Shown: positions 12,543-14,717 of the stretch, one piece after another | Layout of the letters: each line of letters opens with the position of its first letter | Position numbering within the stretch: position 1 is the stretch's first letter | Translations under genes and position numbers: made by a program | NCBI GenBank assembly: GCA_013813345.1 | Contig: JACCRW010000066.1 | Span: forward strand, 1 to 33,209 | Reading direction: 5' to 3' | DNA length: 33,209 nt | Origin: Actinomycetota bacterium | GTDB lineage: Bacteria > Actinomycetota > Thermoleophilia > Gaiellales > Gaiellaceae | Notes under the pieces: generated by a model | Seen by the model: only the letters and a program-made list of their open reading frames with translations | What the model was told of the DNA's origin: nothing | Database searches by the model: none

Positions 12543-13737
12543 GGTCTCCTTGCGCTCGGGGCCTGCACTCGACTCTAGCCGCAGCGGTAGGCGCTGCGAC
12601 ACCCTCGTCATCGGCGGCGGCCTGACCGGCTGCGCGGCGGCCTACTACCTCGCGAAGGCCGGAATCGACGTCGTTCTTGCCGAGCGGCACAGCCTGAACG
12701 CCGAGGCCTCCGGGCGGAACGCGGGCGGCTTCCACGTCCAGATCCAGTTCGAGCCCTTCGTCACGCTCGGCGAGGACTGGGCCCGGAGCTGGGCGCCGAC
12801 GATCCCGCTCCTGATCGACGCGGTCCGGCTCTGGCAGGAGCTGCCCGCCGAGCTCGGCGCCGACCTGGAGGTGAAGGTGAGCGGCGGCCTCCTCGCCGCA
12901 GAGACCGAGGAGGAGCTGGCGGCGATCGAGCGGAAGGCCGCGATCGAGCGGGAGGCCGGGCTCGAGGTCGAGCTCCTCTCGCGCGAGGAGCTGAGGCGCA
13001 CCGCGCCGTACCTCTCTCGCTCGCTCGCCGGCGGGCTCTTCTGCCCGGTCGAGGGCAAGGCGAGCCCGCTCGTCTCGACACCGGCATTCGCGCGCGCGGC
13101 GCGAGCGGAGGGCGCCGTTCTCGCGCCCGGCAGCGATGTGCTCGCGATCGAGCAGACCGCGGTCGGATTCCGGGTCGAGACCGACCGCGGCCCGATCGAG
13201 TGCGAGCGGGTGGTCGACTGCGCGGGCACCGCCGCCGGACGAGTGGCGGAGCTCGTGGGCGTACCGCTGCCCGTCGAGAGCGTCCCGCTCCAGGCGCACG
13301 TGACCGAGCCGGTCGCGCAGCTCGTCCAGCACCTCGTCTACTGCGCGGGGGAGCCGCTGACCGTGAAGCAGTCCGTCCACGGCTCGATCCTGATCGGCGG
13401 CGGCTGGTCGTCGGAGCTCGACGACGCCGGCCGCGCCGACGTGAACATGGCCTCCCTGCGGGGAAATCTCCGCGTTGCCACACGCGTGATCCCCGCTCTC
13501 GCCCACGTTCGCCTGCTCCGGATCTGGACCGGCTTCTGCAACGGCACCCCGGATCACCGCCCGATCCTCGGCGAGCTGGACGAAGTACCAGGCTTCTTCG
13601 TCGCCTCGTTTCCCTATCTCGGCTTCACGGCGGCGCCGATGATGGGGAAGCTCGTCGCCGACCTCTCGCGGGGCCGGTCGGTCCCGTACGACTTGGCCCC
13701 GTTCTCTGCGGCCCGGTTCGATCCCGCCCCCGTCTAG
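12541..13737 (+). CDS. FAD-dependent oxidoreductase (DAO / sarcosine-oxidase-beta / opine-oxidase-B type), stand-alone
   Basis: 398 aa. The dinucleotide fold DTLVIGGGLTGCAAAYYLAKAG begins about 20 aa in. Full-length collinear homology to 18354..19580. The start is ATG 12541 or TTG 12550. No SD is visible. Confidence 0.85.
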   Translation: MVSLRSGPALDSSRSGRRCDTLVIGGGLTGCAAAYYLAKAGIDVVLAERHSLNAEASGRNAGGFHVQIQFEPFVTLGEDWARSWAPTIPLLIDAVRLWQELPAELGADLEVKVSGGLLAAETEEELAAIERKAAIEREAGLEVELLSREELRRTAPYLSRSLAGGLFCPVEGKASPLVSTPAFARAARAEGAVLAPGSDVLAIEQTAVGFRVETDRGPIECERVVDCAGTAAGRVAELVGVPLPVESVPLQAHVTEPVAQLVQHLVYCAGEPLTVKQSVHGSILIGGGWSSELDDAGRADVNMASLRGNLRVATRVIPALAHVRLLRIWTGFCNGTPDHRPILGELDEVPGFFVASFPYLGFTAAPMMGKLVADLSRGRSVPYDLAPFSAARFDPAPV

Positions 13738-14105
13738 CCACAGGCGAAGCTGCGATTCAGGATCGCCGGATAGTCGACCCACGCCTCCTGGCTCGAACGC
13801 TGCTCGAGCAGGCGCTGGACTCCTCGCGCGATCAGGTCGAATTCGCCGTGGTCGATCCCGTAGACGAGGATCACGCCCGCGTGAGAGCGGGCCGCCTCGG
13901 CCCATTCGCGCAGGATTCCCGGGAAGTGAGCGATGTTGTGGGTGACGAGAATGCGTTGCTCGGCCGCACCAAGCGCGAGCACCTCGCCGTCAGGGAGACC
14001 TTCGAGCTGCCGTTCGTCGTCGAGCGCCCGAACGTCGTGCTCGTGCTCACGAAGCGCTCCACCGACTCGTCGCCCCGACACGTGGGCGTCGAGAAGCAGT
14101 CGCAC
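13734..14105 (-). CDS. DUF5615-family PIN-like putative toxin
   Basis: 123 aa from GTG 14105 (VRLLLDAHVSGRRVG...). It is the partner of the DUF433 gene. The 153-aa track version begins at a GTG inside the inserted palindromic element. Confidence 0.65.
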   Translation of the reverse strand: MRLLLDAHVSGRRVGGALREHEHDVRALDDERQLEGLPDGEVLALGAAEQRILVTHNIAHFPGILREWAEAARSHAGVILVYGIDHGEFDLIARGVQRLLEQRSSQEAWVDYPAILNRSFACG

Positions 14106-14108
14106 CGT

Positions 14109-14277
14109 TAGATGGTTGATCGGAGAATGACGGCGGCCCGGATGACGGCCACGACACGGCGCCGGATCACCACCCTCGCGAACCGCCCAGGCCACGGGCC
14201 TGAACGGCCCGCGAGTGCGGCGCCCGGCTTGGTCGTGACCGCCCCCGGCTGCGCGTCATTCTCCGATCAACCATCTA
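14109..14277. mobile_element. 169-bp MITE-like palindromic element (24-bp perfect terminal inverted repeats, TA at both ends)
   Basis: 14109..14132 tagatggttgatcggagaatgacg is the exact reverse complement of 14254..14277 cgtcattctccgatcaaccatcta. Further imperfect nested inverted repeats lie inside (cggccacgac/gtcgtgaccg, ctcgcg/cgcgag, caggcc-acg-ggcctg). It has no coding capacity. Confidence 0.5.
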
Positions 14278-14703
14278 TTCGGCGACGCGGATGAACGGAT
14301 AGAGCTCGCGGAGCTCGTCGAGCGGGCGGTGCTGCTCCTCTAGGATCGCCTCGATCTCCTCCGGGAAGCGGTCGGCGTACGCGTGCGCGAGCTGCAGGTG
14401 ACGTTCGGTCACGAGCGGATGGCTCGCCCGAAGCGAGTCCTCGTCTCCGTCGTAGGATCGAAGCAGGTCGACGATCTCCCAGACATCGAGGCCGCTTCCG
14501 ATCGCCCACGCGCGACGCGGAGCATCCCGGAACGCGATCCCGGGAAACAAGCGCGTCTTCGCCGCCTCTTCGGCGAGCTCCTCGACGACCACGCTCCGCG
14601 AGCGTCCGGACCGGCGTCCCTCCTCCCGAACGAGCAGGTCGGCCTGCTCACCGAGCCGGATCGAGAACGGCTGAGTTCTTGCGGGCCGTGCTCTACTACG
14701 CAT
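14275..14703 (-). CDS. DUF433-domain putative antitoxin with an N-terminal RHH-like segment
   Basis: 142 aa. FSIRLGEQADLLVREEGRRSGRSRSVVVEELAEE resembles a ribbon-helix-helix, followed by a DUF433-like core (PGIAFRD...RAWAIGSGLDVWEIV). The TAG stop is formed by the end of the element. Confidence 0.72.
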   Translation of the reverse strand: MRSRARPARTQPFSIRLGEQADLLVREEGRRSGRSRSVVVEELAEEAAKTRLFPGIAFRDAPRRAWAIGSGLDVWEIVDLLRSYDGDEDSLRASHPLVTERHLQLAHAYADRFPEEIEAILEEQHRPLDELRELYPFIRVAE

Positions 14704-14704
14704 G

Positions 14705-14717
14705 GCTACACTGTAGC
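14705..14717. promoter_or_regulatory. 13-nt palindrome GCTACAcTGTAGC immediately upstream of the antitoxin ATG
   Basis: It fills the 16-nt gap between the ALDH stop (14720) and the antitoxin ATG (14703). Confidence 0.3.

What the first reader, a model, noticed from the sequence alone, without database searches (positions are those of the whole stretch)
14109..14277. A 169-bp MITE-like palindromic element is inserted exactly between the antitoxin and toxin genes
14109..14132 and 14254..14277 are perfect 24-bp inverted repeats. Both outer ends are TA. The 121-bp interior contains nested imperfect inverted repeats, so the whole unit can fold into one long hairpin.

Deleting the element plus one TA restores, on the minus strand, ...GCC GAA TAA cg GTG CGA CTG... 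This is the DUF433 gene ending in TAA, followed 2 nt later by the DUF5615 GTG start, which is the compact layout expected of a TA pair.

In the present state the antitoxin stop (TAG) is built from the TA plus the first base of the element, so the antitoxin C-terminus is unchanged.

TA duplication with about 20-26-bp terminal repeats is the hallmark of IS630/Tc1-mariner-derived MITEs, such as Correia-type elements. The insertion should uncouple toxin translation from the antitoxin. It also creates an in-frame GTG at 14195 that would extend the toxin ORF by 30 codons.
Basis: partly seen in the sequence, partly recalled or inferred. Interest (0 to 1): 0.65.

Follow-up and report, generated by a model that had tools for sequence, protein, structure and literature searches.

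The report
Mobile hairpin element splits toxin–antitoxin pair
A 165-bp non-coding jumping element from a previously undescribed, multi-copy family in soil Gaiellaceae bacteria has landed in the stop codon of a predicted antitoxin gene, pushing its toxin gene 167 bases away behind a very stable hairpin; this is a real but fairly ordinary kind of event.

Summary

**What is there**
- Window 14109-14277 is a 165-bp palindromic MITE (14111-14275) flanked by a duplicated TA.

**Evidence that it is a mobile insertion**
- The genome, a 70%-complete Gaiellaceae MAG, holds four more copies.
- The genus holds dozens of copies. More than 119 copies with exact termini occur in Gaiella, Gaiellaceae and Thermoleophilia MAGs.
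- One genome has seven copies that are 98-100% identical at different sites.
- The syntenic ortholog and about 30 homologous gene pairs all have a compact stop-start junction without the element.

**Target and likely mechanism**
- The family prefers a symmetric C-TA-G target and duplicates TA. This is the signature of IS630/Tc1 elements.
- No partner transposase carrying these termini was found.
- Because the element begins TA|G, insertion into a TAA or TAG stop codon rebuilds a TAG stop. 41 of 80 copies sit on a gene's stop codon, and 23 of 80 lie between co-directional genes as this one does. The placement is therefore a family habit and is not specific to toxin-antitoxin loci.

**Structure and local effect**
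- The full-length hairpin is kept by compensatory changes in 27 of 42 pairs.
- The toxin gene is intact. Its start lies 3 nt after the stem, and the computed cost of opening its ribosome-binding region rises from 15 to 33 kcal/mol.

**Limits**
- Reduced toxin translation is inferred, not shown.

The parts
14111..14275 (.). The element proper: a 165-bp non-coding palindromic MITE (GATGGTTGATCGG...CCGATCAACCATC)
   Evidence: Similarity to the other copies stops at these ends. The family length is 160-169 bp. It folds as one unbranched hairpin.
14109..14110 (.). TA, toxin-side copy of the target-site duplication. With A14108 it forms the original TAA stop on the minus strand.
   Evidence: TA is adjacent to both ends in 52 of 80 copies, and homologous empty sites show a single TA.
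14276..14277 (.). TA, antitoxin-side copy of the target-site duplication
14111..14132 (+). Left terminal inverted repeat (24 nt including the TA). The first 13-18 nt are conserved across the whole family.
14254..14275 (-). Right terminal inverted repeat, a perfect complement of the left one
14275..14277 (-). The antitoxin's present stop codon TAG, made of the duplicated TA plus the first base of the element
   Evidence: The same arrangement occurs in 41 of 80 family copies.
14278..14703 (-). Predicted antitoxin gene (142 aa): RHH-like N-terminus and DUF433-like C-terminal half
   Evidence: DUF433 is a predicted antitoxin partner of PIN-family toxins (PMC2701414).
13734..14105 (-). Predicted toxin gene (123 aa, DUF5615, Mut7-C-like PIN group). 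The native GTG start is at 14105-14103, 3 nt after the hairpin.
   Evidence: Pfam E 2e-11. It is intact and keeps 33 of 35 conserved positions. The structural model has pLDDT 93.
14193..14195 (-). In-frame GTG inside the element that opens a 153-aa extended toxin ORF. It lies in the apical triloop.
   Evidence: The opening energy is 41.3 kcal/mol.
14135..14250 (.). Interior of the element: variable between subfamilies but self-complementary. It holds the conserved unpaired motifs ACGGCGC (14156-14162) and GCTTGGTC (14227-14234).

Best explanation
The segment is one copy of a non-autonomous DNA transposon (MITE) family confined, as far as searched, to Gaiellaceae/Gaiellales (Thermoleophilia, Actinomycetota).

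**The insertion.** The element proper is 165 bp long. It has conserved 15-18-nt termini, extended here to a perfect 22 nt plus TA, and an interior that is self-complementary along its whole length. It inserted by a cut-and-paste, TA-duplicating reaction into the TA of the antitoxin's TAA stop codon. The original junction was ...GCC GAA TAA CG GTG..., and the two genes are now 167 bp further apart.

**Why the antitoxin is unchanged.** The element begins with G, so the upstream copy of the TA plus that G rebuilds a TAG stop at the same codon.

**Likely enzyme.** The symmetric C-TA-G target preference points to a dimeric DDE transposase of the IS630/Tc1-mariner type acting in trans. This enzyme has not been identified.

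**Why it landed here.** Landing on a stop codon is a family habit. CTAG is 6.5-fold depleted in these 70% GC genomes, and about 38% of the remaining CTAG sites are stop codons.

**Inferred consequence at this locus.** The toxin's GTG has no Shine-Dalgarno sequence and, in all relatives, sits 0-27 nt from the antitoxin stop, mostly within 10 nt. It probably depended on translational coupling. It now lies 3 nt after a roughly -140 kcal/mol hairpin, which should lower toxin translation. The host encodes RNase III, so the double-stranded stem also becomes a potential cleavage site.

**Shown:** insertion, multi-copy mobility, TA duplication and CTAG preference, conserved hairpin, intact toxin.

**Inferred:** the type of enzyme and the effect on expression.
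For: **Multi-copy and recently mobile**
- Five copies in the genome at 88-93% identity.
- 18 of 36 same-genus genomes have matches. The termini occur in 47 of 57 genus genomes, against about 0-2 hits per genome for the control pattern.
- More than 119 stretches with exact termini, all in Gaiella, Gaiellaceae, Gaiellales, Thermoleophilia or 'Actinomycetes' MAGs.
- Seven copies 98-100% identical at distinct sites in G005.

**Empty sites**
- The syntenic ortholog in G061 aligns on both sides and lacks the element: 185 nt in the window against 20 nt there.
- Seven genus loci and 22 of 25 metagenomic loci holding both genes have compact junctions, and none carries the element.

**Target**
- C at -3 in 64 of 78 copies, G at +3 in 59 of 80, and CTA...TAG in 36 of 80.
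- With 71 oriented copies the preference is symmetric: 75% and 80%, with both in 62%.
- The inner G and C stay invariant when the outer flank differs, so the duplication is 2 bp and not 4 bp.
- IS630/Tc1 elements insert at TA and duplicate it, and IS630 prefers the TA within CTAG (PMC2170065, citing Tenzen & Ohtsubo 1991).

**Stop-codon habit**
- 41 of 80 copies sit on a stop codon, against 37-38% of free CTAG sites.
- 23 of 80 copies lie between co-directional ORFs.

**Hairpin**
- 98 of 107 unique copies fold as one hairpin.
- 27 of 42 pairs show compensatory changes. 95.2% of cells are paired, against 80.8% in shuffles and at most 42% when partners are slid.

**Local consequences**
- The toxin is intact.
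- The opening energy of the toxin's ribosome-binding region is 33.4 kcal/mol with the element and 15.0 with the flanks joined.
- RNase III is encoded in the genome.
- No Rfam family matches.
Against: **No partner transposase was found.**
- DDE_3 occurs in only 2 of 57 genus genomes and in none of the copy-rich ones.
- 30 IS630-type loci across the order lack the termini.
- NCBI's IS630 model and the IS5, IS427 and Harbinger models find nothing in G005.

**The conserved hairpin is not explained.** A DDE transposase needs only the ends, so conservation of the full-length hairpin does not follow from this mechanism alone.

**This copy's target is not the preferred one.** It is T-TA-T (A-TA-A on the coding strand), not CTAG.

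**Other gaps**
- No same-species empty allele is available.
- The toxin-antitoxin function itself is a prediction. There is no PDB or NCBIfam match, and Foldseek finds no neighbour.
Confidence: 0.85

Rival explanations
1. Same kind of element, but mobilised by an IS5-family (IS427/ISL2-like) transposase and not an IS630-type one. Some of those elements also hit TA- or CTAG-like targets with 2-4-bp duplications and have ends beginning GA/GG.
For: The element starts GA. The TA/CTAG target is compatible (own knowledge of the IS5 subgroups, not tested against ISfinder). IS5-type DDE genes exist in G002 and G007.
Against: None of the eight IS5-type loci carries the termini. G005, the genome with the recent burst, has none. 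The duplication is strictly 2 bp.
Confidence: 0.12
2. A palindromic single-strand element (REP/RAYT-like or an IS200/IS605 'PATE') that a Y1 tyrosine transposase inserts 3' of a TA without any duplication. In this case the second TA belongs to the element.
For: For a near-palindrome, this model and a TA duplication leave identical sequence. The whole-length hairpin is conserved by covariation, as expected for a hairpin-recognising enzyme. Y1_Tnp genes are present in all five MITE-rich genomes. No DDE partner was found.
Against: The target preference is symmetric on both sides of oriented copies, with C-TA-G jointly in 62%, whereas Y1 enzymes read an asymmetric 5' target. The Y1 genes are syntenic chromosomal genes with no termini nearby. 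They occur equally in five MITE-free genomes. The inverted repeats run to the very ends and are not subterminal hairpins.
Confidence: 0.06
3. The element is kept here because it is useful: a co-opted RNA-level module (attenuator, RNase III site or 3'-end stabiliser) that tunes the toxin-to-antitoxin ratio. On this view it is not a neutral or mildly harmful insertion.
For: The hairpin is maintained by compensatory changes and there are conserved unpaired motifs. The toxin is still intact. This copy has the longest perfect repeat among 107 unique copies. Correia, ERIC and BIME elements are documented to affect co-transcribed mRNAs (PMC10969869 and PMC3049150).
Against: None of about 30 homologous toxin-antitoxin loci has the element, so it is not needed for the system. 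There is no orientation bias relative to the upstream gene, 22 against 19. There is no U-tract terminator or promoter signal. Hairpin conservation is family-wide and not locus-specific.
Confidence: 0.15
4. A native, conserved structured spacer of this toxin-antitoxin operon, and not an insertion.
For: The hairpin is very stable.
Against: It is multi-copy at unrelated loci. It is absent from the syntenic ortholog and from all other homologous loci.
Confidence: 0.01
5. An assembly artefact: the contig was joined wrongly through a repeat.
For: This is a short-read MAG with 463 contigs. Another contig (C46) begins inside a copy. A fold-back artefact was seen in a relative's assembly.
Against: The two flanks are the two halves of one syntenic gene pair. 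A TA lies on each side exactly as in the other copies. At 169 bp, the element is shorter than typical read pairs.
Confidence: 0.02

Closest known systems
IS630/Tc1-mariner-derived bacterial MITEs, for example RUP of Streptococcus pneumoniae (TIRs like IS630-Spn1) and MITEEc1
   Same: Small, non-coding, with terminal inverted repeats and TA target duplication. The CTAG preference matches that reported for IS630 itself. Multi-copy and mostly at gene ends.
   Different: No IS630-type element with matching ends was found in any genome searched. The element is GC-rich and forms a full-length hairpin of 165 bp. The host is a Thermoleophilia lineage, for which no MITE is described in the literature searched.
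Correia elements (CREE/NEMIS) of Neisseria
   Same: TA duplication, inverted repeats of about 25 bp, roughly 100-200 bp long, and no known cognate transposase. They are often co-transcribed with neighbouring genes, where the hairpin is an RNase III substrate (PMC10969869). They are a useful model for how this element may act on the toxin mRNA.
   Different: Unrelated host, and sequence relatedness was not tested. Correia elements carry promoters and an IHF site, and no promoter-like site was found here. RNase III processing is only inferred here.
ERIC/IRU and YPAL-type enterobacterial palindromic repeats, and BIME/REP
   Same: Long imperfect palindromes placed at 3' ends of genes or within operons. 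They change mRNA stability or attenuate downstream genes (PMC3049150 background section).
   Different: REP/BIME elements are linked to Y1 (RAYT) enzymes and make no target duplication. Here the target is a symmetric CTAG with TA on both sides, and the Y1 genes do not correlate with the element.
DUF433 (COG2442) - PIN (Mut7-C-like, COG4634/PIN_10) predicted type II toxin-antitoxin pairs, for example M. tuberculosis VapBC45
   Same: This is the interrupted host locus: an upstream DNA-binding partner and a downstream small nuclease-like protein, with a compact junction in all relatives.
   Different: The antitoxin here has an extra RHH-like N-terminus and only sub-threshold DUF433 similarity. 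Neither toxicity nor neutralisation has been tested for this subfamily.

Membership tests
Prokaryotic MITE | Short (under about 300-500 bp) and non-coding | tested here: met
   165 bp. The only ORFs inside it are frame artefacts of 35-60 aa. The family length is 160-169 bp.
Prokaryotic MITE | Terminal inverted repeats | tested here: met
   24-nt perfect repeat here. 13-18 nt are conserved family-wide.
Prokaryotic MITE | Target-site duplication | tested here: met
   TA on both sides in 52 of 80 copies, with single-base decay in the rest. Empty sites have one TA.
Prokaryotic MITE | Many copies at unrelated loci, with presence/absence differences between relatives | tested here: met
Prokaryotic MITE | A related autonomous element that supplies the transposase | tested here: not met
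   No longer element shares the termini in G000, G002, G005, G007 or G069. Many accepted MITE families, such as Correia, also lack one.
IS630/Tc1-mariner-derived element | Insertion at TA with 2-bp TA duplication | tested here: met
   The family property is cited from PMC2170065.
IS630/Tc1-mariner-derived element | Symmetric target, with IS630's preference for the TA within CTAG | tested here: met
   C at -3 in 75% and G at +3 in 80% of 71 oriented copies.
IS630/Tc1-mariner-derived element | Ends similar to those of an IS630-family IS in the same or related genomes | tested here: not met
   32 DDE_3 loci (2 from the genus, 30 from the order) have no match to the termini or the body of the element.
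IS630/Tc1-mariner-derived element | An IS630-type DDE transposase present where the element recently moved | tested here: not met
   G005 (seven near-identical copies) has no PF13358 or NF033545 hit. That MAG is 85% complete, so absence is not proven.
Correia/NEMIS | Sequence relatedness to the Neisseria element, its IHF site and its promoters | not tested
   No reference sequence was available in the tools. No promoter-like site was found. Treated as an analogy only.
REP/RAYT or IS200/IS605-type palindromic element | No duplication, an asymmetric 5' target, and association with a Y1 transposase gene | tested here: not met
   The target is symmetric. The Y1 genes are syntenic, lack the termini nearby and are present in MITE-free genomes.
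Type II toxin-antitoxin pair, DUF433 - Mut7-C-like PIN | Two small adjacent co-directional genes with an overlapping or near-abutting junction, conserved as a pair | tested here: met
   7 genus loci and 25 metagenomic loci hold both genes.
Type II toxin-antitoxin pair, DUF433 - Mut7-C-like PIN | Domain signatures of both partners | tested here: inconclusive
   DUF5615 matches at E 2e-11. DUF433 reaches only E 0.021 in this protein but matches 7 of 17 homologues, and RHH_1 matches 10 of 17. There is no PDB neighbour for the toxin model, as expected for a group without a solved structure (PMC5499597).
Type II toxin-antitoxin pair, DUF433 - Mut7-C-like PIN | Toxicity of one partner and neutralisation by the other | not testable with these tools
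   Needs expression assays.

The most novel reading that the evidence does not exclude
The family's full-length hairpin may be what makes it harmless inside operons. The stem brings the upstream stop codon (at its 5' base) and the next gene's start codon (just past its 3' base) side by side. A terminating ribosome could then re-initiate across the closed stem, a shunt-like form of translational coupling. This would explain three observations. First, 23 of 80 copies sit between a stop codon and a co-directional ORF, with almost no Shine-Dalgarno sequence in the spacer. Second, the whole stem, and not just the transposase-binding ends, is kept by compensatory changes. Third, the toxin gene here is still intact. 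The family may also be moved by an enzyme of a type not yet recognised, since no known TA-targeting transposase is visible even where it recently spread.
Probability: 0.1. Interest if true: 0.8.

Novelty: new member of a known kind. Interest (0 to 1): 0.42.

Why it matters
- **A new mobile-element family.** This documents a MITE family in Gaiellaceae, an abundant but almost uncultured soil actinobacterial group for which no MITE was found in the literature searched.
- **A simple rule for harmless insertion.** A TA-duplicating element that starts with G rebuilds a TAG stop. In a GC-rich genome where CTAG is rare and often is the stop codon, such an element ends up exactly at gene ends without damaging proteins.
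- **A natural experiment on gene coupling.** This copy separates a predicted toxin from the antitoxin it is normally coupled to. Nearly a third of family copies sit inside operons in the same way, so the family offers many natural test cases for how long hairpins affect the expression of coupled genes.
- **A practical point.** These repeats break short-read assemblies. One contig of this genome starts inside a copy.

Tried and rejected
1. **G009:C148 candidate parent.** A pair of identical termini 2.8 kb apart looked like a full-length parent. It is a perfect 2,390-nt fold-back with no spacer, which is an assembly artefact.
2. **IS630-type loci.** Two in the genus and 30 across the order were checked. 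None has the termini.
3. **Other transposase models.** IS5, IS427 and Harbinger-type models and NCBI's IS630 model were run on five copy-rich genomes. There was nothing in G005, and the few loci in G002 and G007 lack the termini.
4. **Y1 (RAYT/IS200-like) genes.** They are present everywhere, syntenic, and do not correlate with the element.
5. **Unbiased scan of the own genome** for terminus-like pairs at IS-like distances. It returned only noise at three mismatches.
6. **Viral contigs.** Five hits of the 19-mer lie in contigs of 36-38% GC with no further similarity, so they are chance matches.
7. **Rfam.** Nothing above noise.
8. **A 4-bp CTAG duplication.** Rejected because the inner G and C stay fixed when the outer bases differ, and because this copy would then lose the antitoxin stop.
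9. **Extra selection for stop-codon placement.** The excess over the CTAG null is modest: 51% against 37-38%, nominal p = 0.007, and the copies are not independent.
10. **Orientation bias relative to transcription.** None, 22 against 19.
11. **Confirming the toxin as PIN-like.** There are no sequence matches in the PDB or NCBIfam, and no Foldseek neighbour for the model.

Full report
**1. The observation**

Window 14109-14132 and 14254-14277 are perfect 24-nt inverted repeats with 121 nt between them. The 24-mer occurs nowhere else in the window, and none is expected by chance. Both outer dinucleotides are TA. As RNA in the sense of the genes (minus strand), 177 nt fold into a single unbranched hairpin of -141.2 kcal/mol. 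Shuffles give -80.2 +/- 4.3, so z = -14.4.

On the minus strand the 142-aa ORF 14275-14703 ends GCC GAA TAG. The 123-aa ORF begins GTG at 14105, and an in-frame GTG at 14195 opens a 153-aa version.

**2. It is a repeated, mobile element**

- The window lies in a 2.47-Mb MAG of 463 contigs, 70% complete. That genome has four further copies: C132 (93% identical), C202 (88%), C240 (5'-truncated) and C46 (cut by the contig end). Similarity stops sharply at TAGA...TCTA.
- 18 of 36 genomes of the same genus have matches at 70-85% identity, several with ten or more.
- The 15-nt terminus, allowing up to two mismatches, occurs in 47 of 57 genus genomes. The control pattern gives 0-2 hits per genome.
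- An exact-termini pattern finds more than 119 stretches in the species-representative genome collection. All are in MAGs labelled Gaiella, Gaiellaceae, Gaiellales, Thermoleophilia or simply Actinomycetes/Actinomycetota.
- In G005 seven copies are 98-100% identical but sit at different sites with different flanks, so the family moved recently there.
- Rfam has no matching family.

**3. The site was once empty**

- The upstream protein has homologues in four other genus genomes. G061 has the closest one, at 86% amino-acid identity. Its locus aligns with the window continuously over the FAD-oxidase gene and toxin (12611-14104) and over the antitoxin (14289-14716). The 185 nt between those blocks correspond to only 20 nt in G061.
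- All seven genus loci holding both genes have junctions ranging from an overlap to 5 nt. One reads GAGTAACGGTTG.
- Of 25 metagenomic loci holding both genes, 22 have compact junctions and none has the element. The closest ones (79-82% identical) read GACTAACGGCGATG or GACTAGCAGGATG. Two of the three exceptions are distant homologues where the gap is an artefact of partial alignment. The third, L076, carries an unrelated insert.
- Joining the window's flanks with one TA gives GCCGAATAACGGTG, the same layout.

**4. Ends, duplication and target**

- In 80 copies from other genomes, TA lies next to GATG...CATC on both sides in 52. The rest show single-base decay.
- The base before the left TA is C in 64 of 78 copies. 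The base after the right TA is G in 59 of 80. The pair CTA...TAG occurs in 36 of 80.
- A 4-bp CTAG duplication would look the same at consensus sites. It fails because the inner G and C never change when the outer bases differ. In this copy it would also remove the antitoxin stop.
- For a near-palindrome, 'TA duplication' and 'insertion 3' of TA without duplication' (the Y1 style) leave identical sequence. I therefore oriented 71 copies by an asymmetric internal motif. The preference is symmetric: C at -3 in 75%, G at +3 in 80%, both in 62%. This fits a dimeric enzyme acting on double-stranded DNA.
- TA insertion with TA duplication defines IS630/Tc1-mariner elements, and IS630 prefers the TA within CTAG (PMC2170065 and the Tenzen & Ohtsubo 1991 paper it cites).
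- This copy used a non-preferred T-TA-T site.

**5. Why it sits 'exactly between' the genes**

- The element starts with G, so TA plus G always forms TAG reading inward from either side.
- In 41 of 80 copies, a long ORF with high third-position GC ends exactly on that TAG.
- The null is high. CTAG occurs at 0.43 per kb in this 69.8% GC genome, against 2.77 expected. 37-38% of unoccupied CTAG sites already serve as stop codons. The excess (51%, nominal p = 0.007, with copies not independent) is modest. It is most simply explained by loss of insertions that disrupt genes.
- 23 of 80 copies lie as this one does, with a stop codon on the junction and a co-directional ORF reaching to within 80 nt after the element. 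This is a crude ORF-based call, and true start codons may lie further downstream.
- The placement is therefore a family habit and is not specific to toxin-antitoxin loci.
- An earlier scan note on another genome (e1-3931570) describes a 164-bp hairpin element starting on the last base of a stop codon. That agrees, but I did not check it.

**6. The partner enzyme was not found**

- Pfam DDE_3 occurs in 2 of 57 genus genomes and 37 of 301 genomes of the order. None of the 32 loci inspected carries the termini or any similarity to the element.
- In five copy-rich genomes, NCBI's IS630 model and the IS5, IS427 and Harbinger models find nothing in G005 and only unrelated loci in G002 and G007.
- All termini in four copy-rich genomes are paired at about 150-167 bp or stand alone.
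- A 2.8-kb 'pair' in G009 is a perfect fold-back assembly artefact.
- Y1 genes are present in every genome tested, whether MITE-rich or MITE-free. They lie in syntenic contexts with no termini nearby.
- Viral-contig hits are chance matches.
- These are MAGs, so absence cannot be claimed. The enzyme may be on an unbinned contig or a plasmid.

**7. The hairpin is conserved as a structure**

- Interiors differ widely between subfamilies, yet 98 of 107 unique copies fold as one unbranched hairpin.
- On 40 diverse copies, RNAalifold predicts 42 pairs, and 27 of them keep pairing through changes on both sides.
- 95.2% of cells are paired, against 80.8% in shuffles and 23-42% when partners are slid. 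The covariation score is 0.373 against 0.125, with 0 of 500 shuffles reaching it.
- Two unpaired motifs, ACGGCGC and GCTTGGTC, are conserved.
- A DDE transposase needs only the ends, so this conservation is unexplained. It may reflect how such palindromes arise and are corrected, or it may reflect selection at the DNA or RNA level.
- There is no orientation bias relative to the upstream gene, 22 against 19.

**8. Consequences at this locus (inferred)**

- The toxin gene is intact and keeps 33 of 35 positions that are at least 90% conserved in 23 homologues.
- Its GTG has no Shine-Dalgarno sequence and, in relatives, abuts the antitoxin stop. Coupling is therefore the likely native mode of translation.
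- The start now lies 3 nt after the stem. The cost of opening positions -18 to +12 is 33.4 kcal/mol, against 15.0 with the flanks joined.
- The extra GTG at 14195 is in the apical triloop and costs 41.3 kcal/mol to open, so the 30-codon extension is unlikely to be used.
- No sigma-70-like promoter or U-tract terminator was found.
- RNase III is encoded in the genome. Correia hairpins in transcripts are cut by RNase III, and BIME and ERIC elements alter operon expression (PMC10969869 and PMC3049150).
- I estimate about a 60% chance that toxin output is lowered.

**9. The host genes**

- The downstream protein matches DUF5615 at E 2e-11.
- The upstream protein scores below cut-off for RHH_1 and DUF433. 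Its homologues match RHH_1 in 10 of 17 cases and DUF433 in 7 of 17.
- DUF433 (COG2442) is a predicted antitoxin of PIN-family toxins (PMC2701414).
- The Mut7-C-like PIN group is described as potential toxins without a solved structure (PMC5499597). This fits the confident model (pLDDT 93.2) having no PDB neighbour.
- The toxin-antitoxin label is a sound prediction, not a tested fact.

**10. Verdict**

- This is a genuine MITE insertion from a family not found in the literature searched.
- It works like IS630-derived MITEs, but membership is unproven because the parent was sought and not found.
- It is a new member of a known kind and of moderate interest.
- The open points are the missing transposase, the covariation-maintained full-length stem, and the tolerance of insertions inside operons.

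Noticed in passing
L076 about 1921-2116 (metagenome contig Ga0315292_10029578): A homologous toxin-antitoxin locus (antitoxin 72% identical) carries an unrelated insert of about 185 nt at the same stop/start junction. It is flanked by the direct repeat CTAGTGCG, with a third copy of that repeat inside. It has no similarity to the 169-bp element.
   Followed up: partly
window 13734-13737: A CTAG supplies the stop codon of both the toxin (minus strand) and the convergent FAD-oxidase gene (plus strand). It is an unoccupied copy of the family's preferred target only 370 nt from the insertion.
   Followed up: partly
G026:C11:469553-469598; G061:C1:95478-95531; G029:C54:299209-299276: Miniature versions of 46-68 bp consisting of little more than the two termini facing each other. 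They are probably internal-deletion derivatives.
   Followed up: no
L068 (G009:C148:10900-15700): A perfect 2,390-nt inverted duplication with no spacer, which is a fold-back chimera in that public assembly. It mimicked a 2.8-kb element with matching ends.
   Followed up: yes
L278-L287 (G005, G007, G002, G033, G069) and G036, G027, G032, G067, G021: One to three Y1_Tnp (IS200/RAYT-like) genes per genome in conserved chromosomal contexts across the genus. They look like domesticated or vertically inherited genes, not mobile IS copies.
   Followed up: partly
window 14156-14162 and 14227-14234; alignment A1 columns about 52-58 and 126-134: Two unpaired sequence motifs (ACGGCGC and GCTTGGTC) are conserved across subfamilies whose paired interiors have diverged. 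They may be a protein-binding site.
   Followed up: no
G000 contigs C46:1-88 and C240:3225-3363: One contig begins inside a copy of the element, so the repeat breaks the assembly. Another copy has lost its left 30 nt including the terminus.
   Followed up: no
L269 and L270 (G005:C17:3482-3646 and G005:C5:29914-30078): Two copies with identical element sequence and identical flanks on different contigs. This is either a duplicated region or redundant contigs in that MAG.
   Followed up: no
window 14705-14717: A 13-nt palindrome GCTACAcTGTAGC fills the gap between the upstream aldehyde-dehydrogenase stop and the antitoxin ATG. I did not examine it.
   Followed up: no
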